IMG/VR virus record: IMGVR_UViG_3300031949_000026
Source: an uncultured virus (IMG/VR IMGVR_UViG_3300031949_000026)
Taxonomy: Duplodnaviria; Heunggongvirae; Uroviricota; Caudoviricetes
Length of the DNA stretch: 20,000 nucleotides
Reading direction: 5' to 3' (one strand)
Shown piece after piece: positions 2,723 to 17,925 of this stretch (positions within the stretch are counted from its first letter, which is position 1; each line of letters opens with the position of its first letter). The notes beneath the pieces are model-generated. The model saw only the letters and a list, made by a program, of their open reading frames with translations. It was not told the origin of the DNA and searched no databases. The translations under genes and the position numbers were made by a program.

Positions 2723-2730
2723 GGAACCTC

Positions 2731-3212: not shown

Positions 3213-3418
3213 GACTTCTGCCTCTTTTCCTCGACCATCTTCTGAAACGCTTCGAGTTCCTCGATCCTCCTCTTGTGGAGCGCGAGGACCTCCGCCTTCG
3301 CCTTGTCCGCTTCCCTACGCTCCTCCGCGACCTTACTCCAAAGAATCTTGATCGTCGTCACGAGAGCCGCGACGATGCCCCCGGCGATCCCGAGGATCTT
3401 CCAGCATGTCGAATCCAC
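3209..3418 (-). CDS. Small single-TM plus coiled-coil protein, 69 aa
   Basis: ILGIAGGIVAALVTTIKILW TM segment followed by a charged heptad region; GGGGAGG SD. Confidence 0.75.
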   Translation of the reverse strand: MDSTCWKILGIAGGIVAALVTTIKILWSKVAEERREADKAKAEVLALHKRRIEELEAFQKMVEEKRQKS

Positions 3419-3436
3419 GATGCACTTTGCCTCCCC

Positions 3437-3736
3437 TTAGACCCGAATCGCGATGACCTTCCCGGTGTCGTCCACAGAGAGTGCCCATTCCGTTCCGTCC
3501 GGACTCGAAAGGAAAACCTGCTCCGGAAATCTCCTGGCCGGAACGTCCACGAATGCCCGAACGACGGAAGCGGGGTCCTTCGTTTCCGCATCGTCGAGGA
3601 CGACCCGCGTGTAGGCCGCCCCCTTTTTGTTCTCGTCGGAGTCGATCCGCACGACGAGGAAGTTCGCCGCCAAAAGAGCCTGCTGGAGGCCCGCGAGATC
3701 GCGGATCGCCCGGCCCGAGACGTCTACGTTTTTCAT
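3437..3736 (-). CDS. Hypothetical protein, 99 aa (C-terminal LSSPDGTEWALSVDDTGKV resembles fibre/spike beta-hairpin segments)
   Basis: Tightly packed in the operon. The fibre resemblance is pattern recognition only. Confidence 0.7.
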   Translation of the reverse strand: MKNVDVSGRAIRDLAGLQQALLAANFLVVRIDSDENKKGAAYTRVVLDDAETKDPASVVRAFVDVPARRFPEQVFLSSPDGTEWALSVDDTGKVIAIRV

Positions 3737-3739
3737 ATC

Positions 3740-4438
3740 TTATGTATGCATACAGATCGCGCGAAGCGGCGCGTTGGCTGCCCGCTGAACCTGCCCCGTC
3801 GAAGCGCCGCCCCCCGAAAGATGCAGGGTGAGCGTGTGGGCTCCGATCGCGACTGCCGGAAACCGGACAACGCCGCCGAGATTTGCGCCTCGGCCGTCCC
3901 CGAGGCCCTGATTGGTCGTTCCTTCGACCACCGAAGGCGTCCCGCTCGCGTCAAGATCGACCCCAAGAGTGGACGCATCCACGAAGCCGCCCGACGTGAT
4001 GGACATTCCGTTCACGAAAACGAGGATGTCTCCGGCGACGACCTGCGTGAAAGGAAGGGAGGCCCCGGGGATGGCCGCGAAAGTCGGAAACACGACCGAC
4101 GTCACAAAGGTTCCCGAGGCGATGTCCGAGAACTCGTCGAACGTATAGCCGCCCGAGGAGATGTCGGTGAGATTCGCGACGGCCCTCGCTGCCCCTCCGA
4201 CGAACTGCTGGAGGCGGCCGGTCACGACGTCCATCCCGACTTCCCCGAGCACGGCCGGGACGCCGGAGCCGCTCCAGCGAATCAGGTTTGCGGGATCGAG
4301 CGTGATCGTGTTCTTCCCGAACTTCATCGACCCGCAAGGGCAGACGAAGATCGGGATGCCGCGCCGAAGCGGGACCATCCGCTTCCCGCACTTGCAGGCG
4401 GGGCGCGGCCCGAACAGTTTTTCGAGCAAAGCCTTCAC
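3740..4438 (-). CDS. Putative spike/minor structural protein, 232 aa, with N-terminal CxC...CxC knuckle and a Gly/Thr/Val-rich beta domain
   Basis: GTG start 3 nt after the upstream stop; beta-strand-rich composition. Confidence 0.7.
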   Translation of the reverse strand: MKALLEKLFGPRPACKCGKRMVPLRRGIPIFVCPCGSMKFGKNTITLDPANLIRWSGSGVPAVLGEVGMDVVTGRLQQFVGGAARAVANLTDISSGGYTFDEFSDIASGTFVTSVVFPTFAAIPGASLPFTQVVAGDILVFVNGMSITSGGFVDASTLGVDLDASGTPSVVEGTTNQGLGDGRGANLGGVVRFPAVAIGAHTLTLHLSGGGASTGQVQRAANAPLRAICMHT

Positions 4439-4441
4439 GTC

Positions 4442-4738
4442 CTACCCGTTCGGAGCTTCCTGGGGTCCGCTGAAGGTGGCGATGGCCGGGACCTTGGCCT
4501 TGAGCACGTCGAGGCGTGCCTGGATCTCGGCCTTGACCTTCGTCTCGGCGTCGATCATCCGGGCGGTCGGGTCCGCGCCCACGGCGGGGCCGGGCATCAT
4601 GCCCCGGAACTCCGCCGTGAAGTTGTGGCCGCCCGTGATCTGCTCGTCGGTCGCCCCGGAGTAGGCGAAGACTTCCCCGACGACGCCCGTGCGTCGGTCG
4701 CGGGCGAGCGTGATGTTGACGTGGAGCCGTTCGGCCAC
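4442..4738 (-). CDS. Hypothetical protein, 98 aa
   Basis: GAGGAGG SD before GTG; tightly packed. Confidence 0.8.
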   Translation of the reverse strand: MAERLHVNITLARDRRTGVVGEVFAYSGATDEQITGGHNFTAEFRGMMPGPAVGADPTARMIDAETKVKAEIQARLDVLKAKVPAIATFSGPQEAPNG

Positions 4739-4750
4739 AGTATCCTCCTC

Positions 4751-5671
4751 TTATGCCACAAGAGCCAGCGGAGACTTTTTCTCGAAGGAGAGCGACGTCA
4801 CCCTCTTCCCCATAATGTACAGGCCGCTCTCTCTGACCGCAAACATCTCTCGCCCCATGCGATTCTTGAGGACCATCCCGTCATCCTCATAGTCCTCGGT
4901 GAAGCGCCAGCCGTTCTCGAACGACAAGTCGCCCGCGGTGATCGTGACGGCGCGAACGAGAGTGAGCCGGAGCGCCGCCGTCCCCAGAGACCAATCATTG
5001 TCCACCACCGGAGCCATCGTGAAATCGCCCTGGAGGGCGATGTTCCCGTTGAAGCGGCTGGCCGCGTTGCATCGAAAGTCTTCTCCGGCCACGGCCCCGA
5101 TGAGCCCGTTGGTGCTGCCCGTCACGATCACGCAGCCGTCGTCTCCGAGCACGAGGACTTCGACCTGGGTCGTGCTCCCGTTCGGTGTCGTCTTGAGGAC
5201 CTGACGAGTGCCGTGATTGGCCGCCGTCCACGCACCCGCCGCCTCGAAAAGGATGGCGGCCTGCTGACCGGAGAAGGCCACGCCGTCGTAGCCGCGTGCC
5301 GAGAACTCCCACATGTCGTCGTCGTCCACGAGGGCGGTCGGAGCGGCCTTGGTGCCTTCCGACTTTCGACCGACGAACTCGAAATTCTCCCCGGATGTTC
5401 CGTAATGGTCGATGATCCAAAGCGGCCCCGTGCCCTGGTATTCCGCGTGCAGCGGGAATCCCGGCGCGAAGATTCCCTGAGCGTCGATCCCCTCGATCCC
5501 GAGCCGCCGGTTCGTCGTATCCACGACGAGAAAATCGTCCGGAGTCGCGTCCCGGACCGTGAACGCGCGGGTCGAGGTCCGGCGAATCTGAGGATCGGCC
5601 GAGACGATGATCGGATCGACGCTCGCCGCGAGGTCGAGCGACGTGACCTGATCGACGATCGAAAGCGGCAT
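4751..5671 (-). CDS. Putative spike/fibre (receptor-binding-like) protein, 306 aa
   Basis: Fibre-like segments (VVDTTNRRLGI; PVVDNDWSLGTAALR; TAGDLSFENGWRFTED); GAGGTG SD. Confidence 0.65.
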   Translation of the reverse strand: MPLSIVDQVTSLDLAASVDPIIVSADPQIRRTSTRAFTVRDATPDDFLVVDTTNRRLGIEGIDAQGIFAPGFPLHAEYQGTGPLWIIDHYGTSGENFEFVGRKSEGTKAAPTALVDDDDMWEFSARGYDGVAFSGQQAAILFEAAGAWTAANHGTRQVLKTTPNGSTTQVEVLVLGDDGCVIVTGSTNGLIGAVAGEDFRCNAASRFNGNIALQGDFTMAPVVDNDWSLGTAALRLTLVRAVTITAGDLSFENGWRFTEDYEDDGMVLKNRMGREMFAVRESGLYIMGKRVTSLSFEKKSPLALVA

Positions 5672-5674
5672 GGT

Positions 5675-6079
5675 CTAATCCACCTCGAACTGAATGGAGG
5701 CCGAGGTCGCGATCCCGGCGACCTCTTCCACTTCGACGGCCGCGATCGACCCGCCGATTCCGCCGTAGCTGATCGACGAGAAACGCCCGAGGATGATCCC
5801 CGCGCCCGCCGGGCCGCCGACTTCCCGGACCCGGATGAGCGAGCCCGCGGGTCCCGTGTTCTGGATCGTCATCCGGTTCGTGTTCGCGGGCGGAACGGTG
5901 AGCGGAACCGTCGCACCGATCCCGACCGCGACGTCCGCGGAGGTGTCGATGACCGTCCCCGGCGAGATGTTCGAGATCACGCCCGAGACGACGAGGGGGT
6001 TCGCGGCCGTCCCTTGCACGACCGCGTTCTCGTCGTGCAGGACCACCGGGAACAGGTGGGGCTTGAGCGGAGCAGGCAT
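5675..6079 (-). CDS. Small beta-rich structural protein (penton/spike-base candidate), 134 aa
   Basis: GGAG SD; beta pattern RMTIQNTG..LIRV..GIIL. The role is inferred from its position after the capsid candidates. Confidence 0.6.
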   Translation of the reverse strand: MPAPLKPHLFPVVLHDENAVVQGTAANPLVVSGVISNISPGTVIDTSADVAVGIGATVPLTVPPANTNRMTIQNTGPAGSLIRVREVGGPAGAGIILGRFSSISYGGIGGSIAAVEVEEVAGIATSASIQFEVD

Positions 6080-6091
6080 CCATCGTCTCCG

Positions 6092-6874
6092 TTAGAGTTG
6101 GAGGTCTCCCGTGGCCCATTCCGCGGCTCCCTGCGGCGCGGAAGCCCAATACTGGTAGAAGGCCAGGACCCCGCGGATCGTGACCGTGACGCCGCTTTTG
6201 TTCTCGACGAGCATCTGGAGCCGCGAGCGTCCGCGGACGCCGAACTGGAGCCCGTTAGAGAGCAAGCACCACGGGATTTCGACCGAGGCGGGAAGAACCG
6301 TCGTCCGGCCGGACTGGACCGGCGTCGAGCCGCCGTAAGCCGTGGGCGTCTGGTCATCGAAGATCGGGATGATGTCGGCCCGGCCCGCGACGTTGTTGCG
6401 GGCGTTGGCCGCCTGGAGCCAGAATTCCAGTTGGCAGTTCATGAGCGGCGCGAGCGGCGCGAGATCCAGACCGAAGCCCGTCACGATCGCGCGCTGGCGG
6501 TCTTCGATCAGCCGGTCGAAGATGACGGCCGTCGCGCCGGGCGCAACCTGGAGGCCGCACTTCGACTTGATGAGCGGCTTCGAGAAGAAAGGCGGCTCGT
6601 TGAACGCGGGCTTCTTGACGAAGAAAATGAGCGGCTTCTTGAGTTCCGACGCGAAGCGGCAGAAGAGGTCGTCCATCTTCTGCTGATCGGCGGGGTCCTT
6701 CGTGTTCGGCCCGCAATTGGGATCGAACACGACGTCCTTCGGGCGAGGTTCGCCCTGTCCGTAGTCCCGCCAGCCCTCGAAGAAGTATTCCTCTTCGTGA
6801 GGGTTTCCCATGCCGCCGCGACCCGGCGGGCGCGGAGGCGGCCCTCCTCGACGGGGAGGCTGTTTAGGAGACAT
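6092..6874 (-). CDS. Candidate jelly-roll minor capsid protein, 260 aa, with a Pro/Arg-rich N-terminal arm ending GGMGNP
   Basis: C-terminal strands (RLQMLVENKSGVTVTIRGVLAFYQY) parallel the strand pattern ending both halves of the 307-aa protein. Confidence 0.55.
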   Translation of the reverse strand: MSPKQPPRRGGPPPRPPGRGGMGNPHEEEYFFEGWRDYGQGEPRPKDVVFDPNCGPNTKDPADQQKMDDLFCRFASELKKPLIFFVKKPAFNEPPFFSKPLIKSKCGLQVAPGATAVIFDRLIEDRQRAIVTGFGLDLAPLAPLMNCQLEFWLQAANARNNVAGRADIIPIFDDQTPTAYGGSTPVQSGRTTVLPASVEIPWCLLSNGLQFGVRGRSRLQMLVENKSGVTVTIRGVLAFYQYWASAPQGAAEWATGDLQL

Positions 6875-7787
6875 AGCTGACCTTGCGGCCTCCGAAGATG
6901 GGCTTCACCGTGTTCGGATTCACCGTGTCGAGGTTGTCGATGTCGAGTTGCACCTTGAGCGACCGGCGGATCATCCAGGAGGTCGCCCACCGCGCCGGGA
7001 AGATGCCGCCCGAACCGCCGACGCCGCCGCCCGCGACGGTCGGCTGGTGCGCGCCGAAGAGAAGGGACGAATGGAGCTTGTCGCCCGTGAGCGCGCGGTC
7101 GTTCTGGCCGTCGCGGATGCGGCAGCGGAACGCGGCCGAGGACTGCGCCGTGAGCTTGAAACACTCGAAGTCCGCGTTGTCCGGAATCGTCATGAAGTTC
7201 GGATCGTCCGTCGCGCCCGCCGGGAGGACGATCTCTTCGTCGGTCGTGAGGAGGTAGGCGTAGGTCCGTTCGCGGCGCTCGATGTACTCCCAGACCTCCT
7301 TCTTGATCTGCCCCGGGGCCTGATTCGGGTAGAACTTGATCCCGCCCAGGACGAGTTCGACCTTCCGCTCGTTCACGAGGTCCTGATTCCGGAACGTGAT
7401 GTTGAGCGACTGGACCGGCGGGATGAAGATCGTCTCCGGGAGGACGTAGGGGCGGCCCGCGTCCCCGGAGCAGGCGAGAAGGGGGATGGGGCGCGGGGAG
7501 AACTGGATGCGCTTCCCCGGGTGCTCCAGAAGGAAGTCGATGTCGTAGGTCGTGACCGGCACATCCGCGTCGTCGTAGACGACGGTCTTGATGTAGAAGA
7601 CCTCGATCGGACCGTCGTACTGCGCGGTGAGCGGAAACGGGCCGCGCCGCTCGCCCGGCGCGAGCGTGACGACCTGATTCGGCTTCGACACCGACAACTC
7701 GAACGGCTGGACCCAATCCTTCGCCGGATTGAGGTAGGTGCGACCCTGCTTGTCGCGAAGGAACGTCGGAACCTGCGCCCAACTCAT
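6864..7787 (-). CDS. Candidate double jelly-roll capsid protein, 307 aa (two internally duplicated beta domains)
   Basis: Halves align by eye: VTLAPG/IVLPAG; DGPIEVFYI/NADFECFKL; SLNITFRNQDLVNERKVELVLGGIKF/KVQLDIDNLDTVNPNTVKPIFGGRKV. Confidence 0.6.
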   Translation of the reverse strand: MSWAQVPTFLRDKQGRTYLNPAKDWVQPFELSVSKPNQVVTLAPGERRGPFPLTAQYDGPIEVFYIKTVVYDDADVPVTTYDIDFLLEHPGKRIQFSPRPIPLLACSGDAGRPYVLPETIFIPPVQSLNITFRNQDLVNERKVELVLGGIKFYPNQAPGQIKKEVWEYIERRERTYAYLLTTDEEIVLPAGATDDPNFMTIPDNADFECFKLTAQSSAAFRCRIRDGQNDRALTGDKLHSSLLFGAHQPTVAGGGVGGSGGIFPARWATSWMIRRSLKVQLDIDNLDTVNPNTVKPIFGGRKVSYVS

Positions 7788-7937: not shown

Positions 7938-8576
7938 CTAGACGCCCTTGTACCGGATGCCCCGGATGAACCACCGGAAGAGGAGGTTTCCCGTGATGCC
8001 CGCGAGCCCCGAGGGGAAGCTGATCTTCACCTGATAGGGCTCGGTCGAGTTGATGTGGAGCGCCCTGCCGCCCACGTCGAAGCGGTAGAGGTTGTCGGAG
8101 ATGCCCCACCCGATGTGCGGCGCGTCGGTCGCGCCCAGGCCCTCGGTGTCCACGCCGGAGGGCACGTCCTCGACCGGGATCGTGAGGAACTTCGTGTCCT
8201 GGCCGAAGATGATCTCCGAGAGCGCGGCGGCCATGACGAGCGTGAAGTTCCCGACCGAGACGGTCTTGGACGTGAGGCTGCCCCAGAGCCGGGCGTTGAA
8301 GCCGTAGACGTCGAAGCTCAGGGGGGTGCCGAGCGATCCCGCCTGGGTCTGGTTCGAGTGGATGAACGTCTTCGACGTCGCGCCGTCGTTGAGGTTCTGG
8401 CCCACCGGCTTCGAGTACAGGGTGAACTCCCTGTTCGGGGTCGCCGCCAGGATGACTTCCGAGTCGTACAGCGGCTCCTTGTACGACCGGACGATCGCGG
8501 CGGGCACCCCCTTCGTGATCTTGTAGTAGGGGTGGACCACCTGGATCGGCTGCTGCGAGCCGTTCGGCGGAGGCAT
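7938..8576 (-). CDS. Candidate single jelly-roll major capsid protein, 212 aa
   Basis: Strong AAAGGAG SD; beta-rich sequence (EPLYDS...PVGQ..KT..SNQTQAGSLG.P.SFDVYG...LLFRWFIRGIRY); flanked by stable hairpins. The fold is inferred. Confidence 0.55.
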   Translation of the reverse strand: MPPPNGSQQPIQVVHPYYKITKGVPAAIVRSYKEPLYDSEVILAATPNREFTLYSKPVGQNLNDGATSKTFIHSNQTQAGSLGTPLSFDVYGFNARLWGSLTSKTVSVGNFTLVMAAALSEIIFGQDTKFLTIPVEDVPSGVDTEGLGATDAPHIGWGISDNLYRFDVGGRALHINSTEPYQVKISFPSGLAGITGNLLFRWFIRGIRYKGV

Positions 8577-8619: not shown

Positions 8620-8758
8620 AGACCTCAAGGGGGCTCTCGCCCGCCTGTCATATTTCCCGTGGGACGGACTGGCGTACTTGTCCGACTCCCTTTCGGGGCT
8701 CGACGCACGAGCCGCGGAAGGGAGGCCCTGGAGGGTTTCCCCTCCAGGGCTCCCGGGA
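8620..8758 (-). promoter_or_regulatory. Structured intergenic RNA with GNRA-capped hairpins
   Basis: On the minus strand: GCCCTGGAGGG-GAAA-CCCTCCAGGGC (8725-8750), CCC-GAAA-GGG (about 8688-8697) and GGGC-GAGA-GCCC (about 8631-8642). Confidence 0.5.
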
Positions 8759-8761
8759 TCG

Positions 8762-9868
8762 CTAGAACCGCTCCGGCATCGACGACCGGGCGAACTCGTC
8801 GAAGGCTTCTCCGATCCCCGAGGGCTGCATCTCGACCCGATCCGTCTGGGTTTCGGTGAGATACGCGCCCATCGTGGCGTCTTCGCCTTCGCGAGCCGTC
8901 AGGAACGTCTCCGCCCCCGCGGGCGTGAGGTACGTCTCCATGATTCCCGCGGGCTGGATGTACTCGATCATCCCCTCGGCTCCGGCGGCCGGGAGATACT
9001 CCTGCACACCTCCGCCGCCGCGGAGTTCCTTGAGGACTTCCTTCTCGATCGCCTTGCGGAACTCCTCCGTCTCGGGCGCTTCGCCCAGAGTCGGGATGAA
9101 CTCCTTCGCGCTATCGGGGAGCGCCTCGGAGAGCACCTGCCAGAGGGTCGCGAGCAAGCCGCCCGCCAGGAACCGGGTCGTCATGTTCCGGTTCTTGGTG
9201 GCGATGCCCATGAACGCCGTTCCGAGGATCGTCGAGCCGAGCATCGTCCCGACGCGGCCGATGCCCGATTCCCCGAGCGACGGGATCACCTTCTTGTAGA
9301 GCAGACGGCCGCCCACGGCGACCCCGCCGAAGCCCAGACCCGTGTGGAACAGGGCTTCGAGCGTGTCCATCGAGAAGGCGTCCTGGAGCGCCGCCTTGAT
9401 CGCGCCGATCGGATCGGCCGACAGACGGACCGCCCTCGCCGGGTTCCGCCGGTAGTACCGGCGGCGCGGGTTGTGCCGGGCGTAGCGGCGGCGACGGCGC
9501 GGCGCGTTGCCCGGGTTGTGCCGGACCCGCCGCCGACGCCGGTAGCTCCGCGGGAAGCGGTAGCCCCTGATCTGTCCGCGACGGCGGCCCTTCCTGCGGC
9601 GCTTGGCGTACTTCGTGATCTTCCTCCAGCGGCGGCCGACCTTGACGAAGCCGCTCGGATTCCGGCTCCGGCGACGACGCCGGACCGTGCCCTTGGACCG
9701 CCGCGAAACAAACCGGCCGCTCGCGGAGCGGGCGGTCCGACGCCGCCTGACGCGACGGCGCGTGATGGTTTTCGCCATCTTGATCCTCCTTGCCCGTCGT
9801 GCGGGCGACTTGCGAACCGACCGGGGAACATCCCCGACCGGGTTTGCGAAAATCAATGCTCCGATCAT
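8762..9868 (-). CDS. Arg-rich putative DNA-condensing core/membrane protein, 368 aa
   Basis: N-terminal about 140 aa are extremely Arg-rich with repeated NP, followed by hydrophobic helices and C-terminal (E/T)Y(L/I)xPAG repeats. Confidence 0.75.
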   Translation of the reverse strand: MIGALIFANPVGDVPRSVRKSPARRARRIKMAKTITRRRVRRRRTARSASGRFVSRRSKGTVRRRRRSRNPSGFVKVGRRWRKITKYAKRRRKGRRRGQIRGYRFPRSYRRRRRVRHNPGNAPRRRRRYARHNPRRRYYRRNPARAVRLSADPIGAIKAALQDAFSMDTLEALFHTGLGFGGVAVGGRLLYKKVIPSLGESGIGRVGTMLGSTILGTAFMGIATKNRNMTTRFLAGGLLATLWQVLSEALPDSAKEFIPTLGEAPETEEFRKAIEKEVLKELRGGGGVQEYLPAAGAEGMIEYIQPAGIMETYLTPAGAETFLTAREGEDATMGAYLTETQTDRVEMQPSGIGEAFDEFARSSMPERF

Positions 9869-9871
9869 TTG

Positions 9872-12565
9872 CTACCCCCGCATCCAGTCCCCGGTCTTCT
9901 GACCGGGACCCATGACCTTGACGATCACCTTCCCGCCGCTCGCGGCGAGGACCGGAACCGGGCGGGGACGGCCGGAGCCGTCGCCCCACTCGTGCCGGTA
10001 CATATGCCGCCCCTTCCGGGAGCCCTTCGGCGGCTTGTACATCGTCTCGGGACTGTCGCCGTAGTGGGCGAACGAGGTCAACATCTCGATCTTCTTCGCG
10101 GAGCCGATCGGCAGCGTCTTCCAGATGACGAAATGGGGCTTCTTGTTCGCCTTCGTCTGGAGCCGCTCGGCCTCCTCGAACTGCCGCAGAAGTTCCGGGT
10201 TCCCGAGCTTCCGCACCCAGGCGCGGGCGCGCTCGATCGGAATCTTCTGGCCCTCGCGGAACGGGATGCGGACCGAGCCGGGATTCCCGACGACCCGCTT
10301 GGTCTGCTTCGTGACGGTCTCCGTGACCCGGACCGGCTTCCCGGCGCGGCGCGGATTCGAGCGGGAATGGTTCTCCTGCCACGAACGCATGAGCGCGCCC
10401 CGCGCGGAGTCGGTGAGACCCGCCCACGACGGGGCCGCCGCGAGCGCCCAGGCGTAGTCGTCCGGAAACCCGGCGAACTCAAGCGCCGCGTGCCGCTGAC
10501 GGCGCGTGAGCGAGGGCCACTTCCGGTCGATCGGCGGGTTTGCGAGGAGCACGGTCTGGAGGAGCGGGTTCGGCCGGACGGATTCCGGTCCATACTTGCG
10601 GATCACGTCCTCGGCCATCGCCGCGCGTCCCGTGTAGAAGCCTCGACGCTCTCCACGGAAACTCCGAGCACGATAAGCGTCGTTCGCGGCATCGGTCGCA
10701 AGCTGACCGCTTTCCCCGCGTGTAAGAGGGTTCCCGCGGGTCCATCCTCCTCCGCCCTTCTGGATATGAGAGATGGCCCTCTTCACGATCGCAGGCTTCG
10801 CGATGGTGAGCACTTCCCCGTCCCTCGCCTGCGCCCAGACGAAGGCGTTCCGAAGCAGCGAGGCGACCTTTCCTTCCAGGCCGCCCGGAACCTTGTAGGC
10901 GCGGACCGATCCATTCGGAATCGGCTGTCCGTATTCGCCGCGCTTGGGCTTGTAGATACCGACCTCTCCGAGAATTTTCGTCTTCTTCGTGAGAAGGGTC
11001 GAAGAACCCATCGCACGGACCGACGACATGAGGAGGAAGACCGGCCGCCAGCCGGTCGTCACCGAGACCGTGCCGCTCGCGACGTGACCGAAGTCGTCCA
11101 CCCAGATTCGCTTCCCGTTTTCGTAGTAGGGAATGAAGCGTGGATCGAGTTCGGAGTCGTCGAACTTCGATCCGTGCTGCGCCTTCGCGCGCGCGAGGAG
11201 ATCCTGATACGATCGACGCTCCCGGCCGGAGGCATAAGGATTGTCGCAGGTCGAAGGGTTCGAGCAGCAATTCTCCCGCGCCGGAACCCGGTAGCCCGCC
11301 TTGCGCGCCATCGAGTAGGCGATCGCGATCGCCTGCTGCTGCGGGTAGCCCTCACGAACGAGCATCCCGATCTTCCCGGAGATGAAGCTCTGCGCGTCGG
11401 CGCTCGCCGGGTTCCCGCGCGCGCCGGTCTTGCTCGCGGCGTACCCGCGGACGAAGCACCACGCCTCCTTGAGGCCGCGCGCGGTGTAGATGCCGTCGCC
11501 CCCGTGGTAGTCGGTCGGCTTCGTGAAGAAGCGGTAGCGCGTCATGCCGTCGCCGGGAGCCCAGGTCTCGATGTGGAGCCCGAGCGACTTCGCAAACTCG
11601 TCGAGCCCCCTACGACCCTCGCCGGGAGCGTTGCGGAACACCGCGGCTTCCGCCCGCTTGATCGTCGCCCCCTGGCGCATATCGAGAGGTCCGAACTCGG
11701 CCACCCCATCGGCGTAGCCGTAGGCGCGTCCTTTATAGTGGGCGGCGAGCCGACCGCTACGCTGTTGACCGGCGGAGACCATCGAGCCCAGCGCCATCGT
11801 GAGCGCCCGATCCGCCTCACGGCGCGTGAGCGGATTCGAGACCGGGCCGATCAGCCGGTCGTAGTTCCCGAGTTCCGCTTCGGCCTCGAAGCTGTCGCGG
11901 AACATTCTGGCTGCGACCTCCCGGGTCGCCCTGTTGAACATGGTGTCGATCCGGGGAATGTCGTGGGGACGCTCCGAGGAGACGACGTACTCTTTGATGT
12001 ACTTCTTCGCTCCGCTCTCCATGAGGTACATGAAGAGCGTGACGGCCTTCTCCCGATCGTAAACGCCCTTGCGCCGCTTGAGCATGAGGTTCTTGACGAT
12101 CGGAATGAACTGCTGACGATAGAGATCCGCGTCGTTCTCGATGAAGATTGCAAGCTCCCGAGCGGCGTCGGCGTCGGCCGGACCGGAGGGCGCGTTGTTG
12201 AAGGCGAAGACGTTCTTACGCGCCTTACCGTTCGGCCATGCGAAATCCGCGTTCGGCTCGGGGCTGCCTTCGTTGTTGAAGGCGAAAATGTTCCGGCGCG
12301 CGCCGTTCGGCTTCGCGATCAGGCCCATTTCCTCGGCATAGCCGATGACGGACCGCTTCAACTCCACACCACGCTTGAAGAATCCATCCCCGAACATCTG
12401 ACGGGCGTCGTCGTCCCACCACTCCGCGATCGTCCTCTGACCTCTCTTTTTGTCGCTGATACGGATGTGCAGCCGATCGCGCTCCTCCCAGACATTGACA
12501 TCGACCTCCGCCCGAGTGAGGAGACGGCGCGGGTTATTGAAGGCGAAGACGTTTTTCCGGCTCAT
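9872..12565 (-). CDS. Large modular NP-punctuated protein (putative virion core/cargo polyprotein), about 897 aa
   Basis: ATG at 12565 preferred over the track start at 12601 because of a GGAGG SD and ATGA overlap with the upstream stop. Contains many NP/NAP motifs and internal repeats. Confidence 0.8.
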   Translation of the reverse strand: MSRKNVFAFNNPRRLLTRAEVDVNVWEERDRLHIRISDKKRGQRTIAEWWDDDARQMFGDGFFKRGVELKRSVIGYAEEMGLIAKPNGARRNIFAFNNEGSPEPNADFAWPNGKARKNVFAFNNAPSGPADADAARELAIFIENDADLYRQQFIPIVKNLMLKRRKGVYDREKAVTLFMYLMESGAKKYIKEYVVSSERPHDIPRIDTMFNRATREVAARMFRDSFEAEAELGNYDRLIGPVSNPLTRREADRALTMALGSMVSAGQQRSGRLAAHYKGRAYGYADGVAEFGPLDMRQGATIKRAEAAVFRNAPGEGRRGLDEFAKSLGLHIETWAPGDGMTRYRFFTKPTDYHGGDGIYTARGLKEAWCFVRGYAASKTGARGNPASADAQSFISGKIGMLVREGYPQQQAIAIAYSMARKAGYRVPARENCCSNPSTCDNPYASGRERRSYQDLLARAKAQHGSKFDDSELDPRFIPYYENGKRIWVDDFGHVASGTVSVTTGWRPVFLLMSSVRAMGSSTLLTKKTKILGEVGIYKPKRGEYGQPIPNGSVRAYKVPGGLEGKVASLLRNAFVWAQARDGEVLTIAKPAIVKRAISHIQKGGGGWTRGNPLTRGESGQLATDAANDAYRARSFRGERRGFYTGRAAMAEDVIRKYGPESVRPNPLLQTVLLANPPIDRKWPSLTRRQRHAALEFAGFPDDYAWALAAAPSWAGLTDSARGALMRSWQENHSRSNPRRAGKPVRVTETVTKQTKRVVGNPGSVRIPFREGQKIPIERARAWVRKLGNPELLRQFEEAERLQTKANKKPHFVIWKTLPIGSAKKIEMLTSFAHYGDSPETMYKPPKGSRKGRHMYRHEWGDGSGRPRPVPVLAASGGKVIVKVMGPGQKTGDWMRG
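12194..12560 (-). repeat. Three copies of an R-[KR]-N-[VI]-F-A-F-N-N coding repeat
   Basis: gtt(g/a)ttgaaggcgaa(g/a)a..tt at about 12195, 12272 and 12533. Confidence 0.9.
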
Positions 12566-12870
12566 GCCGCGACCCTCCGACGCATCGGGACATAGGGCCA
12601 ACCCGCCGGGTTCCGGCGCGCGCCGCGGGACGCGAAGTGCGAGCCGATCGCGGCGGCGACCGCCGCGCCCGCGACGAGGGCCAGGACGACCGCCAGCCCG
12701 AACTTCGGGAGCACGTCTTCGACCATGACTTTCCTGATCGTCGGCTCCGCCGCTTCCGAGGCCGACGCCACGATCTCCTTCATGCGGGGCAGGAGCGCCG
12801 CGGTGATCTTGTCCGCGATCGGCATGATCGCGGCCGAGAGCGCATCCTGTCCCATGCCGTAGTGCTGCAC
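12562..12870 (-). CDS. Small membrane protein, 102 aa (MQHYGMGQDALSAA...TM...ARRNPAG)
   Basis: Real 3' part of the track's 475-aa ORF. GTG at 12870 with GGAG SD, 2 nt after the upstream stop; one TM segment. Confidence 0.8.
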   Translation of the reverse strand: MQHYGMGQDALSAAIMPIADKITAALLPRMKEIVASASEAAEPTIRKVMVEDVLPKFGLAVVLALVAGAAVAAAIGSHFASRGARRNPAGWPYVPMRRRVAA

Positions 12871-12872
12871 GT

Positions 12873-14384
12873 CTATCTCCGGCCCCTGCTCCTGCTCCTG
12901 GACTTGAAGAGGACGTAGCCCGCGGCGAGGGCCGTCACACCCGAGCCGAGCCAGAACCAGGGACTCGACAGGATCGACTTCGACGAGACGGGCATCATCT
13001 GGACCTGTGCGACCGGAGCGCCCGCGACCTTGTTCGTGGCGTTGGCGACGGCCGCCGCGTACTTCGCCTCGACCTTCGCCGTCACGACGGCTCCGGCGAC
13101 CTTCGCCGCCTCCGCGAGCGCCCCCGTCACCGTGTTGAGGACGGAGTTCCCGGCGTCGGTCGCCGCCTTCGCGGGCTCCGAATCGAGGCTCGTGACGAGC
13201 GTGGACTTCCACTCCTCGCCTTCCGCCCCCATCCCCGCGGGGACCCGCGTCGGGTTCTGCATGACGACCACCGCGCGGCGGCGGATTCCCATCGGCTGTT
13301 CCATCACGATCCTCACTTGTCTCTCGGGGGTCCCGGGCTGCTGCTCCTGGACGGTGGGACCGGCCTTCCAGAACCGGCGCACGTCGCGTCCGAGGTTCCC
13401 GTTCCAGGGAGAGCCCGGCGGATACGGCTGGTTTTCGATCTTGGTGTAGGGCTGGTCCCCTCTCCTGTAGTAGGGAGGGCCGTGATCGTCCGGCTGCCCC
13501 TTGAGGTGGACGATCCGGCGCGACGGGTTTTTCCCCTTCGACGCCTTGATGTACTTGAGACCCGGCTGGAGATCCGACTCGGGAATCTCCGTGTCGTGCG
13601 GCGGGAGAAGCTGCATGTTCGCCGCGTCGGAGACGGGGATGAGTCCCTCGGCCCCGTCCGGCCCGAACGACTTGGGGATGCCGTAGCCGTACTCCTCGGA
13701 CGGATAGAACTCTTCCTGTGGATTGGACGTGACGACATCCTCGACCTCCTGGCCGAGGCCGTTCCGGTGGAAGCCGTTGAGCCCGCTCATGCCCTTCCCT
13801 CCGACCACATCTTCGATCGGTCCCTCGGGCCAACGCGCGAAAAGTTCCGGAGCGACAGGCGGCCTCCAACCGGGCTTCGCGCTGGCCGTCGAAGGATCGA
13901 GCGCGTACCAGTCGCCGTTGACTCGGGCCGCGACCCAGACGTGGGAAAACTCGTCGGGGCGCTGGAGATCGACCTTGGCCGTCTCCCACGCATACTGAAA
14001 TCCGAGAATGCCCAGGAGCGCCGCCGTGTAGACGCCCGCGATCGTATCGCAGTCCCCCACGAAAAGACCGGGGCCTTTGTACTTCTTCGCCACCCGAGCT
14101 TCGATGATCGGCTGCATCGCGGCGATCGGATGCTCGATCTTCTCGATCTGGAACGGATCACGCTGGAAGATGCCGTGTTTCTTGATCCACCAAAAGATCG
14201 CGTCGAGGACGGCCGTCGTGGACGCGCGCCGGTCGCTCGGAACCTGTAGCCTGATCCAGGTCGCGATCCGCTGCATCGTCTTGTCGAGCTTCCCGAGCGC
14301 GACGAGCCGGTGCATCTTATCCAGGGTCTTTTTCGTCCCCCGGACGCCGCGCTCAAGACCTTCGATCGTGGACTGTTCGCGCAC
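12873..14384 (-). CDS. Transglutaminase-like cysteine protease (Cys-His-Asp) with C-terminal membrane anchor, 503 aa
   Basis: GDCD (Cys about 14050), FSHVWV (His about 13942) and WYALDPS (Asp about 13897) match the transglutaminase-like core. C-terminus is PWFWLGSGVTALAAGYVLF plus a basic tail. Start codon uncertain (no SD). Confidence 0.85.
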   Translation of the reverse strand: MREQSTIEGLERGVRGTKKTLDKMHRLVALGKLDKTMQRIATWIRLQVPSDRRASTTAVLDAIFWWIKKHGIFQRDPFQIEKIEHPIAAMQPIIEARVAKKYKGPGLFVGDCDTIAGVYTAALLGILGFQYAWETAKVDLQRPDEFSHVWVAARVNGDWYALDPSTASAKPGWRPPVAPELFARWPEGPIEDVVGGKGMSGLNGFHRNGLGQEVEDVVTSNPQEEFYPSEEYGYGIPKSFGPDGAEGLIPVSDAANMQLLPPHDTEIPESDLQPGLKYIKASKGKNPSRRIVHLKGQPDDHGPPYYRRGDQPYTKIENQPYPPGSPWNGNLGRDVRRFWKAGPTVQEQQPGTPERQVRIVMEQPMGIRRRAVVVMQNPTRVPAGMGAEGEEWKSTLVTSLDSEPAKAATDAGNSVLNTVTGALAEAAKVAGAVVTAKVEAKYAAAVANATNKVAGAPVAQVQMMPVSSKSILSSPWFWLGSGVTALAAGYVLFKSRSRSRGRR

Positions 14385-15684: not shown

Positions 15685-15984
15685 TCACGTTCCCGGCCTC
15701 CGGTAGAGCGATCCCGCCCGGATCGCCTGCGCGAACTTCGGGAGATCCTGCCGGAGCGCCTGCATCTCCATCTGGAGCGCCCCGTTGACTTCGATCGTAT
15801 CGTCGAGCGCGGAGATGAGTCCCTCGTCCTTCCGCGTGATCGCGTCGAAGAGAAGCGCCGTCATCTCCGTCTGCTTCTGGACGGCCTCCGTAAGCTTGGA
15901 GACGGACTTCTGGAGACTGTCGAGGCACCTCAAAAACTGGCCGAAGCGTTCCTGCTGCTTCCGAGAGACCTCCTCTTCCGTCAT
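15685..15984 (-). CDS. Coiled-coil protein, 99 aa (MTEEEVSRKQQE...)
   Basis: ATG at 15984 overlaps the upstream stop (ATGA); heptad pattern. Confidence 0.75.
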   Translation of the reverse strand: MTEEEVSRKQQERFGQFLRCLDSLQKSVSKLTEAVQKQTEMTALLFDAITRKDEGLISALDDTIEVNGALQMEMQALRQDLPKFAQAIRAGSLYRRPGT

Positions 15985-16688
15985 CGACAATGCCCCCTGT
16001 ACAGGAACCCGAGTTCGTCGCCGCGGAAGCCGTCGAAGTACGCCACGCGGACACCGCTCGTGTCGGCGCAGTAATTGAAGGAGACCTGATCGCGCTTCGA
16101 CCCGGAAGCAAGTTCCCGCCACCAATAGGCGTTGAACTCCGCCACCTTCGGCGTATGCCGTCGAAGGAGAATCCCGGTCTCCGCAAGACCGGCGTTCGCG
16201 GGGTAGCCGCGACCGCGATACTTTTCCAATTGGGAGCTAACGACCCCAGGATCGTCCTTCCCACAGTCGATCGCGAACTGGCCGCCTTCGTAGGTGCAGG
16301 AGAACATGAAGTGCCTGCACACGGCGATGTCGGCCTCCGCAAGATATTTTTTCACGAGACCCGGGACGTCCACCTTGTCGAGCGTGAACGCGGCATCGAC
16401 CCAGAGGGAATACTCGTAACGGTGGACCGGGTTGCACGGGAGATGGGAATTCAGCTTCCAGAAGCGGGCGCGGCGCGTGTCGTCGAGGCTTCCCCACGAA
16501 ACGTCGGGGGGAATGACCGCGGGCACGAAGCCGTTCGCCCGGCCGTGGAACCAGCGGGGCGGCCCCCCGGGGAAGTCCGTCGCCAGGAACACGTCGTAGT
16601 CTCCCGGCTTCGGACGGTCGTAATGATCGTGAGCGCCGAACAAGGCCGTGTACACGGCGATTTTATTTTTGAGGATGCCGTAGCTCAT
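15981..16688 (-). CDS. DUF616/TOD1-MUCI70-like glycosyltransferase, 235 aa
   Basis: Motifs VYTALFGAHD, RFWKLNSH, YEYSLWVDA, ETGILLRRH and WWRE...RDQVSFNY are characteristic of this family. Confidence 0.8.
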   Translation of the reverse strand: MSYGILKNKIAVYTALFGAHDHYDRPKPGDYDVFLATDFPGGPPRWFHGRANGFVPAVIPPDVSWGSLDDTRRARFWKLNSHLPCNPVHRYEYSLWVDAAFTLDKVDVPGLVKKYLAEADIAVCRHFMFSCTYEGGQFAIDCGKDDPGVVSSQLEKYRGRGYPANAGLAETGILLRRHTPKVAEFNAYWWRELASGSKRDQVSFNYCADTSGVRVAYFDGFRGDELGFLYRGHCR

Positions 16689-17233
16689 CGGACCGGCGCG
16701 ACGTCGATCTTGGAGAGATCGACATCACCGAACTCCTTCTCCTCGTTGAACTTCCGAGCCCGCAAGAGGACGCCGGGGAAGCCCGGCGCGTCCTCCCGAA
16801 GATCCTGGATTCTCATGTCGGCAAAGATCCGAAGAAAATCCGGAACCGTGAAACGCCAGTAGTCGTGCGGATACCCGTGGTACGGGAAGCCGGGACCCCG
16901 TGTGGTCACGACGAGCAGACCGCCCGGCGCGGTCATCTCCTTCATCACGCGAACAGCGGTGCGCCAGTCCTCGGCGTGCTCCAGCATCTCGGTTGAGATC
17001 ACGACGTCGAAGGGCTCGGGAAAGGCTTCAGGAATGCGCTCAACCGAGAGGACGACATCGACGCCCTTCCCCGGCGTCATATCAACGCCGGTCCAGGACG
17101 CGGGACCGTGGCCCGCGAGTGCATCCCGCGGAGATCCGTTCACGTCTTGAGAGCCGATCTCCAGGACGCTCTTTCCCGCGATGTCCTCGCGGCGGATCTC
17201 GTGGCGAAGGAAGTCCATCACGCTCGAATGCAT
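16685..17233 (-). CDS. Class I SAM-dependent methyltransferase, 182 aa
   Basis: VLEIGSQDVNG, GVDMTPGKGVD, FDVVISTEMLEH and YHGYPHDYWRFT. Start MHSSV at 17233 with AAGGAG SD. Confidence 0.88.
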   Translation of the reverse strand: MHSSVMDFLRHEIRREDIAGKSVLEIGSQDVNGSPRDALAGHGPASWTGVDMTPGKGVDVVLSVERIPEAFPEPFDVVISTEMLEHAEDWRTAVRVMKEMTAPGGLLVVTTRGPGFPYHGYPHDYWRFTVPDFLRIFADMRIQDLREDAPGFPGVLLRARKFNEEKEFGDVDLSKIDVAPVR

Positions 17234-17925
17234 TGTCTGTTCTCCTTGGAGAGGTCCTCGACAGCCTTCTCGATGAACTCGTTCGTGATCGCGCCGGAGT
17301 AGAGTTCGTTCGGCCCCGGAGACAACGGCGTGAGGCAATGGCTCTCGTCGAGCTTGAATTGGACGCCCGGATAGTCCTCGACTCCATAAAAGGTCTCGTC
17401 GATCTTCTTCCAGTCGCGACGGAAAAGCGCGGAGTGCTTGAACCAAAAGAAGGTCCCTGCGAAGCACCATCCGCTCCTCGGAGCGACGTGCTGGTAGCGG
17501 AGGGAACCGACGACCCCCGCCTTCTTGAGCTTCTGATCGACGAGTTCCGGAAATCGAAGAGCCGCCTCGTACATGAGCCAGGACCAGTTCAGAATCGGCA
17601 CGAGGTCCTTCCCATGCCGCGTGACACCTTTCGCGTGCGCGTAGAAGGTGGCCTCATCCTCCTTTTCTGACTTGACGAGTCCAAGCAGATCGACAAAGTG
17701 AGCGGCTTCACCGAGCTTCTCGTCGTTTTCGACAAACCTCACCTCCGCTTCGAGCGGGGAGATCGTCCGCAGGACGACGTTCGGGTTCTCCGTCTTCTCG
17801 TCGATCGAGACGGTGATGATCTTCCGGCCGGTGAAGACGCGACGGTGCTCAAGAAGACGTGGAACGTGCCACGCCCACGAAGTCCCGCGCACCGGATAGC
17901 AGTAGAAGAGGAGATTCCGGACCAT
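17218..17925 (-). CDS. Putative glycosyltransferase-like protein, 235 aa
   Basis: Start MVRNLL at 17925 with GAGG SD; FYAHAKGVT and FAGTFFWF motifs seen in glycan-synthesis proteins; adjacent to the methyltransferase and GT genes. Confidence 0.6.
   Translation of the reverse strand: MVRNLLFYCYPVRGTSWAWHVPRLLEHRRVFTGRKIITVSIDEKTENPNVVLRTISPLEAEVRFVENDEKLGEAAHFVDLLGLVKSEKEDEATFYAHAKGVTRHGKDLVPILNWSWLMYEAALRFPELVDQKLKKAGVVGSLRYQHVAPRSGWCFAGTFFWFKHSALFRRDWKKIDETFYGVEDYPGVQFKLDESHCLTPLSPGPNELYSGAITNEFIEKAVEDLSKENRQCIRA

What the first reader, a model, noticed from the sequence alone, without database searches (positions are those of the whole stretch)
9872..12565. NP-delimited cargo polyprotein: about a dozen small modules strung between Asn-Pro signals
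Seen: the ~897-aa protein is punctuated every 30-140 aa by a usually basic residue plus N-P/N-A-P (FNNP, FNNAP, VSNP, FRNAP, RGNP, CSNP, CDNP, RGNP, RPNP, LANP, RSNP, VGNP, LGNP). The segments between look like independent mini-domains, e.g. ARELAIFIENDADLYRQQFIPIVKNL..., ISGKIGMLVREGYPQQQAIAIAYSMARK and FDDSELDPRFIPYYENG...TTGWRPVF. Inference: NP is a capsid-targeting or protease-cleavage signal, analogous to T4 internal proteins cut by prohead protease or adenovirus core precursors cut by adenain. The gene would then be an expandable cartridge of packaged effectors delivered with the DNA.
Basis: partly seen in the sequence, partly recalled or inferred. Interest (0 to 1): 0.85.

Follow-up and report, generated by a model that had tools for sequence, protein, structure and literature searches.

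The report
Asn-Pro-punctuated modular virus polyprotein
A large protein of an uncultured prokaryotic virus is built from small interchangeable modules, each bounded by an asparagine-proline pair, and it lies beside a likely cysteine protease and an arginine-rich protein marked the same way, which suggests a virus "polyprotein" cut into many pieces.

Summary
The gene (minus strand, 9872-12565, 897 aa) has 11 NP dipeptides against 2 expected (0 of 1000 shuffles). All 52 homologues share the excess, as do 58 of 61 further family representatives.

NP marks the module boundaries:
- 41% of BLAST alignment ends lie within 2 residues of an NP, against 7% for random points.
- AlphaFold gives beads on a string, with 10 of 13 N(A)P sites in disordered linkers.
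- Modules are shuffled, duplicated and inserted exactly between NPs, and several occur alone as small phage proteins.

- The next gene (8762-9868) is also NP-punctuated. It has a 9-residue leader, MIGALIFAN|P, then four protamine-like Arg-rich blocks.
- The upstream "enzyme" (12873-14384) is a transglutaminase-like Cys-His-Asp protein.
- This gene trio is syntenic in 10 of 10 testable relatives.

Cleavage at NP was not shown. It is my best inference (about 0.45), with the neighbouring enzyme as the likely protease. The rivals are an uncut hinge and Asn-Pro self-cleavage. No module has a known function.

The virus lineage (about 70 kb) shows no recognisable tailed-phage hallmark genes. The system works like adenovirus core maturation but belongs to none of the known families.

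The parts
9872..12565 (-). NP-punctuated modular polyprotein gene, 897 aa (P0003). N|P at residues 11, 244, 385, 436, 442, 612, 666, 676, 737, 761 and (789); NAP at 124 and 312.
12290..12529 (-). Module J (aa 13-92, VWEERDRLHI...AEWWDDDARQMFGDGFF). It occurs alone as 65-106-aa proteins elsewhere.
11840..12193 (-). Module F (aa 125-242, helical, ENDADLYRQQ...), preceded by RKNVFAFNNAP. It occurs alone as the 121-aa P0059.
11411..11623 (-). Module C (aa 315-385, TWAPGDG..TRYRFF), present in 43 of 53 family proteins.
11258..11410 (-). Module I (aa 386-436), DUF6496-like, matching phrog_2423.
10730..11239 (-). Module K (aa 443-612). Its front part matches phrog_8217 and small hypothetical ORFs in 22 Mycobacterium phage records. 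It occurs alone as the 100-aa P0060.
10568..10729 (-). Module A (aa 613-666), a helical hairpin beginning NPLTRxE. There are 88 copies in 49 of 53 proteins.
10538..10567 (-). Conserved 10-residue spacer PLLQTVLLAN with an NP on each side (N666 in 51 of 52 aligned proteins, N676 in 52 of 52). It is kept as N|PLLM.V.N|P in distant relatives.
10355..10537 (-). Module D (aa 677-737), helical, present in 43 of 53 proteins.
9875..10282 (-). Module B (aa 762-897), the universal C-terminal domain (HYGDSPE...PPKGSxKG...YRHxWG...DWxRG). It is always at the extreme C-terminus. No fold match was found.
8762..9868 (-). Second NP-punctuated gene, 368 aa (P0070). It has the leader MIGALIFAN|P, then four Arg/Lys-rich blocks of 61, 48, 15 and 9 aa each ending in N|P (61 of 133 residues are R or K), then a 226-aa hydrophobic, Gly-rich and acidic part.
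12873..14384 (-). Transglutaminase-like Cys-His-Asp protein, 503 aa (P0071). Invariant C112 (14049-14051, GDCD), H148 (13941-13943, SHVW) and D163 (13896-13898, LDPS). The C-terminus has a hydrophobic helix and a basic tail. This is the candidate processing protease.
12562..12855 (-). Small gene between the enzyme and the polyprotein, about 98 aa with an uncertain start. It has a hydrophobic helix followed by ...ARRN|PAGW. Its TGA overlaps the polyprotein ATG (ATGA).

Best explanation
The 897-aa protein is a virion-module polyprotein made of about ten small, independently folding cassettes. They are attached to a universal C-terminal domain (B) and separated by Asn-Pro. NP is a punctuation signal under protein-level selection. 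Most likely the chain is cut at or next to N|P after synthesis or assembly. The probable protease is the transglutaminase-like Cys-His-Asp enzyme encoded two genes upstream. The same signal would trim a 9-residue hydrophobic leader and release short protamine-like Arg-rich peptides from the next gene's product, which would condense or neutralise the packaged DNA. The small modules would be pre-made proteins that travel with the genome. Shown: the NP excess, NP at module boundaries, module shuffling and stand-alone forms, the catalytic triad, and the synteny. Inferred: cleavage, the identity of the protease, packaging, and any effector role.
For: (1) NP excess. The query has 11 NP against 2.0 expected, and the 53 family proteins together have 700 against 108, each reached by 0 of 1000 shuffles. 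A further 61 representatives found with a B-domain profile have 507 against 76.7, and 58 of 61 are enriched at least 3-fold. NP is 6.5-fold enriched while SP is 1.04-fold, so this is not a general helix cap.
(2) Boundaries. Of 8955 internal BLAST alignment ends, 40.7% lie within 2 aa of an N(A)P, against 7.2% for random points. Starts peak on the N and ends peak on the P.
(3) Structure. The AF2 model has pTM 0.34 with confident islands. Ten of 13 N(A)P sites fall in the 24% of residues with pLDDT below 50 (binomial p = 8e-5), and two more sit at domain edges.
(4) Cassette behaviour. There are 753 NP-delimited segments forming 103 clusters. B is in 53 of 53 proteins, and the order and copy number of the others vary. 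L020 and L021 differ by one whole zinc-ribbon module inserted exactly between two NPs. Stand-alone modules begin within a few residues of the NP position.
(5) Specificity. Of 22 ORFs tested in the window, only this gene and the next are clearly NP-enriched (0 of 1000 shuffles each); the next lowest p is 0.083.
(6) The downstream protein has the conserved layout leader-N|P, Arg-rich blocks each ending N|P, and the spacer PVVVAN|P in all 10 copies examined (the window plus 9 loci).
(7) The upstream enzyme has invariant C112, H148 and D163 in 44 aligned sequences. Ten of 44 members hit PF01841 (best E 2.9e-7). The Atlas's nearest clusters are Transglut_core at 0.93.
(8) Synteny. The order enzyme, small gene, polyprotein, Arg-rich gene holds in 10 of 10 testable loci; an 11th is cut by its contig end.
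(9) Codons at NP use both Asn codons and all four Pro codons, so selection acts on the protein and not on a DNA motif.
Against: There is no direct evidence of cleavage from proteomics, and no fragments are known. P1' proline is disfavoured by most proteases (general knowledge). The window's own enzyme gets no Pfam hit at E <= 0.1, and only 10 of 44 relatives do; a profile search against PDB sequences found no transglutaminase-like structure. Transglutaminase-fold enzymes are not all proteases. NP-containing linkers also occur in small multi-module proteins where no copy of this enzyme was detected within a 20-kb locus (L075), so the signal may not depend on it. NP often sits 0-3 residues before a helix, which also fits a structural cap. 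Packaging is inferred only from gene order among unannotated genes. No neighbour could be identified as capsid or portal.
Confidence: 0.45

Rival explanations
1. NP is an uncut hinge. The protein works as one beads-on-a-string chain, for example an internal scaffold or an ejection protein. N-P serves as a helix-capping, kink-forming start signal for each module and is kept because it insulates the folding of neighbouring modules.
For: Helices begin 0-3 residues after many NPs: H248 after 244, H616 after 612, H667 after 666, H679 after 676, H790 after 789. NP linkers are seen where no enzyme was detected (L075). AAT, the rarer Asn codon, is enriched at NP (52 of 111 against 28 of 167 elsewhere, p = 9e-8), which could slow translation at module boundaries.
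Against: Other capping pairs are not enriched (SP 1.04-fold, none of the other X-P pairs above 1.3-fold). Tiny conserved pieces bounded by NP on both sides (the 10-mer PLLQTVLLAN, the 13-mer with RKNIFAFNN, the 6-mer PVVVAN) and a conserved 9-residue N-terminal leader ending in N|P are hard to explain as hinges. Arg-rich blocks each ending in N|P look like released peptides.
Confidence: 0.25
2. The chain cuts itself at Asn-Pro without a protease. The Asn side chain attacks its own carbonyl to form a succinimide, as in asparagine peptide lyases, perhaps accelerated inside the capsid.
For: Only N and P are constant, and the flanking residues vary, as expected if the chemistry of Asn is what matters. 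Asn|Pro self-cleavage is established in FlhB/YscU, and cleavage at Asn in reovirus mu1 (PMC3207474, passages read) and in RsgI (PMC10328401, abstract seen in the listing). It would also explain NP linkers in loci without the enzyme.
Against: Known cases need a folded catalytic setting (the NPTH turn), whereas here the sites lie in predicted disorder and NPTH occurs at 0 of 700 sites. From recall, uncatalysed Asn-Pro cleavage is slow, taking weeks. A conserved adjacent Cys-His-Asp enzyme would then be unexplained.
Confidence: 0.12
3. The chain is cut at NP, but by a host protease or another viral protease. The transglutaminase-like neighbour has a different job.
For: NP-linked multi-module proteins occur without a detectable enzyme nearby. 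The hydrophobic ...FAFNN|P and ...VFAN|P leaders recall, from memory, the FFA|S leaders removed by the host Prp protease from L27 and from phage 80-alpha capsid proteins.
Against: Strict synteny with the enzyme in 10 of 10 loci. No other protease was found among 65 ORFs of the complete relative G001.
Confidence: 0.08
4. The transglutaminase-like enzyme modifies rather than cuts the NP asparagines. It would cross-link them to lysines or deamidate them, fixing the chain inside the particle.
For: The fold family includes transglutaminases and amidases that act on side-chain amides (general knowledge). Exposed linker amides are typical substrates for them.
Against: This does not explain why module boundaries, spacer peptides and leaders are bounded by NP. 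Transglutaminases use Gln, not Asn.
Confidence: 0.05
5. NP is the footprint of a DNA-level cassette-exchange site, that is, a recombination signal.
For: Modules are inserted and swapped exactly at NP.
Against: The codons vary: AAC 59 and AAT 52 for Asn, and CCG 63, CCC 24, CCT 16 and CCA 8 for Pro. The 16 window sites share no flanking nucleotide motif.
Confidence: 0.02

Closest known systems
Phage and plasmid 'polyvalent proteins' (Iyer et al. 2017, PMC5512222; abstract and passages read)
   Same: Many small domains of mobile-element origin are strung in one polypeptide. The architectures are mosaic, and the authors proposed packaging, delivery with the DNA and proteolytic release.
   Different: No recognised conflict enzyme domain was found here; Pfam gave only DUF6496 and DUF2958, and those in relatives. 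There is no in-chain zincin or assemblin-like peptidase. A fixed dipeptide delimiter is not described in the passages I read: 'Asn' and 'linker' each occur 0 times in that paper.
Adenovirus core precursors pVII and pMu cut by adenain (PMC7998265, passages read)
   Same: A viral cysteine protease trims short N-terminal pieces and releases an Arg-rich DNA-condensing peptide at a short consensus. pMu has a hydrophobic N-terminus followed by a 19-aa basic core.
   Different: The adenovirus consensus is (M/I/L)XGG|X or (M/I/L)XGX|G, not N|P. Adenain is a different cysteine-protease family, and the host is eukaryotic. No homology was detected.
African swine fever virus polyproteins pp220 and pp62 cut at GG|X by the pS273R cysteine protease (recalled, not checked here)
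   Same: A large DNA virus makes structural polyproteins delimited by a dipeptide and cut by its own cysteine protease.
   Different: The dipeptide, the protease clan and the products differ. The products there are fixed core-shell proteins, not a variable cassette array.
Asparagine peptide lyases: FlhB/YscU N|PTH (family N6) and reovirus mu1 (family N7) (PMC3207474, passages read)
   Same: The scissile bond follows Asn, and is Asn|Pro in FlhB/YscU. Several members are virus structural proteins that mature in the particle.
   Different: Those have a single site inside a folded domain. Here there are many sites in disordered linkers, NPTH occurs at 0 of 700 sites, and no sequence or fold similarity was found.
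T4 internal proteins and prohead protease (recalled)
   Same: Small proteins are packaged in the head, cut by the head protease and injected with the DNA.
   Different: In T4 these are separate genes with a capsid-targeting leader cut at L/I-x-E. No T4-like protease or head genes were detected here.

Membership tests
Polyvalent proteins (Iyer et al. 2017) | Two to 15 distinct domains in one polypeptide of a phage or plasmid | tested here: met
   About 9 confident structural islands. There are 103 module clusters across 53 relatives.
Polyvalent proteins (Iyer et al. 2017) | Contains recognised conflict-related enzymatic or nucleic-acid-binding domains | tested here: not met
   Pfam found 0 families in the query. 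In 29 relatives only DUF6496 (E 0.0017), DUF2958 and a weak VMAP-M18 hit appeared. Seven PHROGs matched, of which 6 have unknown function and 1 is an HNH endonuclease in one member.
Polyvalent proteins (Iyer et al. 2017) | A processing peptidase domain (zincin-like, or C-terminal assemblin-like) within the chain | tested here: inconclusive
   The C-terminal domain B has invariant His, Ser and Asp residues. It has no fold match: best VIA Z 5.0, and no match at E <= 0.001 in BFVD or PDB Foldseek.
Transglutaminase-like superfamily, PF01841 (neighbour gene 12873-14384) | Cys-His-Asp triad in the order and spacing of the core | tested here: met
   C112, H148 and D163 are invariant in 44 sequences, in the motifs GDCD, SHVW and LDPS.
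Transglutaminase-like superfamily, PF01841 (neighbour gene 12873-14384) | Significant match to the family profile | tested here: inconclusive
   The window protein has 0 hits at E <= 0.1, while 10 of 44 relatives hit with best E 2.9e-7. Two of 95 homologues carry the precomputed domain. The Atlas feature score is 0.93. The PDB profile search was empty.
Transglutaminase-like superfamily, PF01841 (neighbour gene 12873-14384) | Peptidase activity on the NP proteins | not testable with these tools
   This needs biochemistry.
Asparagine peptide lyase N6 (FlhB/YscU) | N|PTH motif in a folded four-strand, four-helix domain | tested here: not met
   NPTH occurs at 0 of 700 NP sites. The sites lie in segments with pLDDT below 50.
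2A-type 'StopGo' peptides | D(V/I)ExNPG|P | tested here: not met
   NPGP occurs at 2 of 700 sites and at none in the query. The motif itself is recalled.
Adenain-type core maturation | (M/I/L)XGG|X or (M/I/L)XGX|G sites and a clan CE protease | tested here: not met
   The delimiter here is NP, and the enzyme matches Transglut_core rather than adenain. The mechanism may be the same but the family is not.
Tailed-phage head module (portal, MuF-like protein, protease, scaffold, capsid) | Recognisable portal, terminase, HK97-fold capsid or prohead protease nearby | tested here: inconclusive
   None was found in 32 window ORFs, in 28 relatives' ORFs, or in 65 ORFs of the complete relative G001. The only packaging-type hit is a DUF87/HerA ATPase (phrog_2666).

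The most novel reading that the evidence does not exclude
A lineage of about 70-kb prokaryotic viruses matures its core the way adenoviruses and asfarviruses do. These viruses have a HerA/FtsK-type packaging ATPase and no detectable tailed-phage hallmark genes. They would use a dedicated papain-fold cysteine protease that reads a two-letter code (Asn|Pro). That protease would cut an evolvable cassette polyprotein into a dozen small delivered proteins and cut a membrane-anchored precursor into protamine-like peptides that condense the DNA.
Probability: 0.3. Interest if true: 0.9.

Novelty: new variant of a known kind. Interest (0 to 1): 0.72.

Why it matters
If NP is a cleavage code, this would be a prokaryotic-virus polyprotein system with a minimal two-residue delimiter. 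It would show how a virus can add, swap or drop pre-made proteins simply by inserting cassettes between NPs.

It would also be a case of protamine-like genome condensation by processed peptides in a virus of prokaryotes, paralleling adenovirus core maturation.

A protease with strict Asn|Pro specificity, or efficient Asn-Pro self-cleavage in linkers, would be useful as a tool.

The modules are a ready-made catalogue of small virus proteins that probably act early in infection. They include families seen as orphan ORFs in mycobacteriophages. The whole idea can be tested with one co-expression experiment.

Tried and rejected
**Other readings of the gene**
- Plus-strand reading: the 1305-aa plus-strand ORF 8678-12595 is antisense by GC3 phase and has no family hits.
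- Stop-codon recoding or read-through linking this gene to its neighbours: in the window 8 of 13 tight junctions are in frame (p = 0.035), but in the complete relative 12 of 35 are, which is chance, and the two NP genes are out of frame in relatives. Rejected.
- DNA-level motif: rejected by codon variety.
- General helix cap: rejected because SP and the other X-P pairs are not enriched.

**Fold searches**
- Whole model against PDB: nothing at E <= 0.001.
- C-terminal 238 aa: best VIA-wide Z 5.0, and BFVD nothing at E <= 0.001. Residues 173-238 of that model were barely tested.

**Identity of the neighbours**
- PDB profile searches for C307 and T674 gave nothing credible.
- hhalign of C307 against the PM2 capsid protein P2 gave probability 3.4%. 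The Atlas lead to P2_N/P2_C is only 0.78.

**Complex prediction**
- Enzyme residues 1-200 with polyprotein residues 660-704: verdict 'no answer', score 0.02. This is neither for nor against binding.

**Wider context for distant B-domain proteins**
- Four IMG/VR attempts gave nothing useful.
- Two genome-contig scans gave only one MAG contig of the same clade.
- Host unknown: the bins are named Thermoplasmata and Thermoanaerobaculia, but the contigs look wholly viral.

**Unavailable**
- Whole genome and earlier findings were not available.

**Literature**
- Searches for an NP-delimited phage polyprotein, or for a transglutaminase-like virion protease, found none. The library lacks most subscription journals.
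Full report
**What is there**

GC3 phase shows that nearly the whole window is coded on the minus strand. The finding's gene runs from the ATG at 12565, with a GGAGGG ribosome-binding site 7 nt upstream, to the TAG at 9872-9874, giving 897 aa.

**Is the NP excess more than chance?**

- The protein has 35 Asn and 53 Pro. Eleven Asn are followed by Pro, against 2.0 expected, and 0 of 1000 shuffles reach 11. NP is the most enriched dipeptide at 5.3-fold.
- A stricter null shuffles only within the predicted linkers, which are themselves rich in N and P. It still gives 8 against 2.16, p = 0.0006.
- The excess is a family property. The word-indexed search found 52 homologues, all from metagenomes and many on contigs of 66-75 kb. 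All 53 proteins are enriched (700 NP against 108 expected; 0 of 1000 shuffles for each).
- A profile of the C-terminal domain, run against 1.84 billion representatives, found 82 proteins. Of the 61 not seen before, 58 have at least a 3-fold excess (507 against 76.7). These include distant Lys-rich members.
- SP is 1.04-fold and no other X-P pair exceeds 1.3-fold. This is therefore not the ordinary Ser/Thr/Asp-Pro helix cap.
A basic residue lies within three positions before N at 307 of 700 sites, and composition predicts about 42%.

**NP marks module boundaries**

- In an all-against-all BLAST of the 53 proteins, 40.7% of 8955 internal alignment ends lie within 2 residues of an N(A)P, against 7.2% for random positions. 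Alignment starts pile up on the N and ends on the P. The HSPs are not independent, so this is a descriptive contrast and not a p-value.
- AlphaFold2 with a 67-row alignment gives mean pLDDT 73.7 but pTM 0.34. That means confident islands with no fixed mutual arrangement.
- Ten of the 13 N(A)P asparagines fall in the 214 residues (24%) with pLDDT below 50 (binomial p = 8e-5). Residues 385 and 676 sit at domain edges.
- Only NP789 is inside a domain, and it is the one site that is not conserved.
- The NPs at 244, 385, 436, 666, 676 and 761 are kept in 42-52 of 52 aligned proteins. MAFFT may have used them as anchors.

**The modules behave as cassettes**

- Cutting the 53 proteins at N|P gives 753 segments. 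The 517 segments of at least 25 aa fall into 103 clusters, 30 of them with three or more members.
- The C-terminal module B is in 53 of 53 proteins and, in the wider search, always at the extreme C-terminus. D-A-B is the usual tail.
- Upstream, modules E, F, G, H, I, J, K, L, M and others appear in varying sets, orders and copy numbers.
- Short conserved spacers are bounded by NP on both sides. These are a 10-mer, PLLQTVxLAN, and a 13-mer ending RKNIFxFNN. The 10-mer survives as N|PLLM.V.N|P in the most distant relatives.
- Modules also occur alone, and these stand-alone forms begin within a few residues of where the NP would be:
  - module J as 65-106-aa proteins;
  - module F as a 121-aa protein;
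  - module K as a 100-aa protein, as phrog_8217, and as small hypothetical ORFs in 22 Mycobacterium phage records;
  - module I resembles DUF6496 and phrog_2423.
- A metagenome scan for module J returned 80 loci. In most of the 79 J-bearing ORFs, J is a small protein without NP.
- In a few small multi-module proteins NP again sits in the linkers. L020 differs from L021 by one whole zinc-ribbon module inserted exactly between two NPs.

**Selection acts on the protein, not the DNA**

At 111 NP sites in 12 genes, Asn is coded AAC 59 times and AAT 52 times. Pro uses all four codons, and no flanking nucleotide motif is seen. AAT is over-used at NP relative to other Asn codons (28 of 167; Fisher p = 9e-8). 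I note this without a firm explanation.

**Two neighbours belong to the same system**

- Of 22 ORFs tested in the window, only this gene and the next one downstream are clearly NP-enriched.
- The downstream 368-aa protein (8762-9868) starts MIGALIFAN|P. It continues with four blocks of 61, 48, 15 and 9 residues that each end in N|P and together hold 61 Arg/Lys in 133 residues. It ends with a 226-aa hydrophobic, Gly-rich and acidic part.
- This layout, including a PVVVAN|P spacer in most copies, is conserved in all 10 copies examined.
- Ten of those 44 match Pfam Transglut_core, with best E 2.9e-7; the window's own copy does not. The Atlas's nearest clusters are Transglut_core at 0.93. A profile search of PDB sequences found nothing.
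- The order enzyme, small gene, polyprotein, Arg-rich gene holds in 10 of 10 loci where it can be tested: the window, 8 IMG/VR contigs and 1 MAG contig. One further locus is cut by its contig end.

**Mechanism**

Three things are shown. There is a conserved, protein-level two-residue punctuation at the edges of independently folding, exchangeable modules. The same punctuation flanks hydrophobic leaders, spacers and Arg-rich blocks in the next gene. A papain-fold catalytic triad is encoded alongside.

What is inferred is that the chain is cut at or beside N|P by that enzyme, that Arg-rich peptides are released to condense DNA, and that the small modules travel with the genome. I put this at about 0.45. 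The points against it are:
- Cleavage is undemonstrated.
- Pro after the scissile bond is unfavourable for most proteases.
- Transglutaminase-fold proteins are not all proteases.
- NP linkers exist on a 20-kb locus with no detectable copy of the enzyme (L075).
- NP often precedes a helix.

The rivals are an uncut hinge (0.25), Asn-Pro self-cleavage by asparagine-lyase chemistry (0.12), another protease (0.08), modification rather than cleavage (0.05), and a DNA-level signal (0.02, contradicted).

**Comparison with what is known**

- The architecture fits the idea of phage polyvalent proteins (PMC5512222, passages read). It lacks their recognised enzymatic domains and in-chain peptidases, and that paper never mentions Asn or linkers.
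- Functionally the closest parallel is adenovirus core maturation. There a viral cysteine protease trims N-terminal pieces of pVII and releases the 19-aa Arg-rich Mu peptide from a precursor with a hydrophobic N-terminus (PMC7998265, passages read). The consensus, the protease family and the host all differ.
- Asn|Pro cleavage is established for FlhB/YscU, and cleavage at Asn for reovirus mu1 (PMC3207474, passages read). Those sites lie in folded domains, and NPTH occurs at 0 of 700 sites here.
- 2A-type NPG|P is excluded: 2 of 700 sites.
- I found no description of an NP-delimited phage polyprotein or of a transglutaminase-like virion protease in five searches. The library misses most subscription journals.

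**The virus**

A complete relative (G001, 72.7 kb, direct terminal repeats) has a primase-polymerase/D5 helicase, a Sak4-like protein, an integrase, ThyX and many glycosyl- and methyltransferases. Its one packaging-type hit is a DUF87/HerA ATPase (phrog_2666). Among 65 ORFs it has no recognisable portal, HK97-type capsid, tail or prohead protease.

The two most conserved structural genes, of 212 and 307 aa, remain unidentified. A test against the PM2 double-jelly-roll capsid protein was negative (probability 3.4%). Whether this is a very divergent tailed phage or a tailless lineage is open.

**Verdict**

The cleavage and cargo part is a good but untested inference. It is a new variant of known kinds (polyvalent proteins; protease-matured viral cores), and one co-expression experiment would decide it.

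Noticed in passing
window 387-6874 and 8762-12565, minus strand: Successive minus-strand genes sit in one reading frame. Each pair is separated by a single TAA or TAG, with a start codon 0-4 codons later (gaps of 0, 3, 3, 3, 3, 3, 12, 12 and 12 nt). Eight of 13 tight junctions are in frame (p = 0.035). In the complete relative G001 the figure is 12 of 35, which is chance, and the two NP genes are out of frame there. This is probably coincidence and not read-through.
   Followed up: yes
window 6864-7787 (-) and 7938-8576 (-): Two adjacent proteins of 307 and 212 aa are the most conserved genes of the block, at 58-72% and 67-83% identity to relatives. They have no family, PDB or PHROG match. The 307-aa one has an invariant N20-P21 (IYMNPAKDW) near its N-terminus. 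They are candidate capsid proteins of unknown fold.
   Followed up: partly
related complete genome G001 (L099-L102): This 72.7-kb genome with direct terminal repeats has no recognisable portal, HK97 capsid, tail or prohead protease among 65 ORFs. Its only packaging-type hit is a DUF87/HerA ATPase (phrog_2666). It also carries primase-pol/D5, an integrase, ThyX, a PAPS reductase and at least five glycosyltransferases.
   Followed up: partly
NP sites of 12 genes (window 8762-12565; L002, L003, L004, L009, L010): The rarer Asn codon AAT is used at 52 of 111 NP sites but at only 28 of 167 other Asn (Fisher p = 9e-8). This could be translational pausing at module boundaries or avoidance of a run of C. 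It is unexplained.
   Followed up: partly
window 12562-12855 (-): The small gene between the enzyme and the polyprotein has a hydrophobic helix followed by ...ARRN|PAGW. Each relative's counterpart (about 90 aa) also has one NP against 0.1-0.2 expected.
   Followed up: no
window 15981-17470 (-): A TOD1/MUCI70-like glycosyltransferase (Pfam E 3e-13) and a SAM methyltransferase (PHROG E 7e-18) lie just upstream of the structural block. Glycosyltransferases are numerous in the relative's genome as well.
   Followed up: no
window 3437-6079 (-); L003 16205-18926: There are several paralogous small proteins beginning MPAPLNPNLWPSVLHDE.... One neighbour (4751-5671) has a weak tail-fibre PHROG hit (E 5e-6). 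They are possibly host-recognition spikes or fibres.
   Followed up: no
L004 14714-15559; L002 12689-13276: A LAGLIDADG homing endonuclease is inserted between the Arg-rich gene and the capsid-candidate genes in some relatives but not in the window.
   Followed up: no
L001 8960-10363 (278-kb IMG/VR contig): Module J also occurs inside a 467-aa acidic protein of a jumbo-phage-sized contig, without NP delimiters. It lies next to a 1068-aa ORF of unknown function.
   Followed up: no
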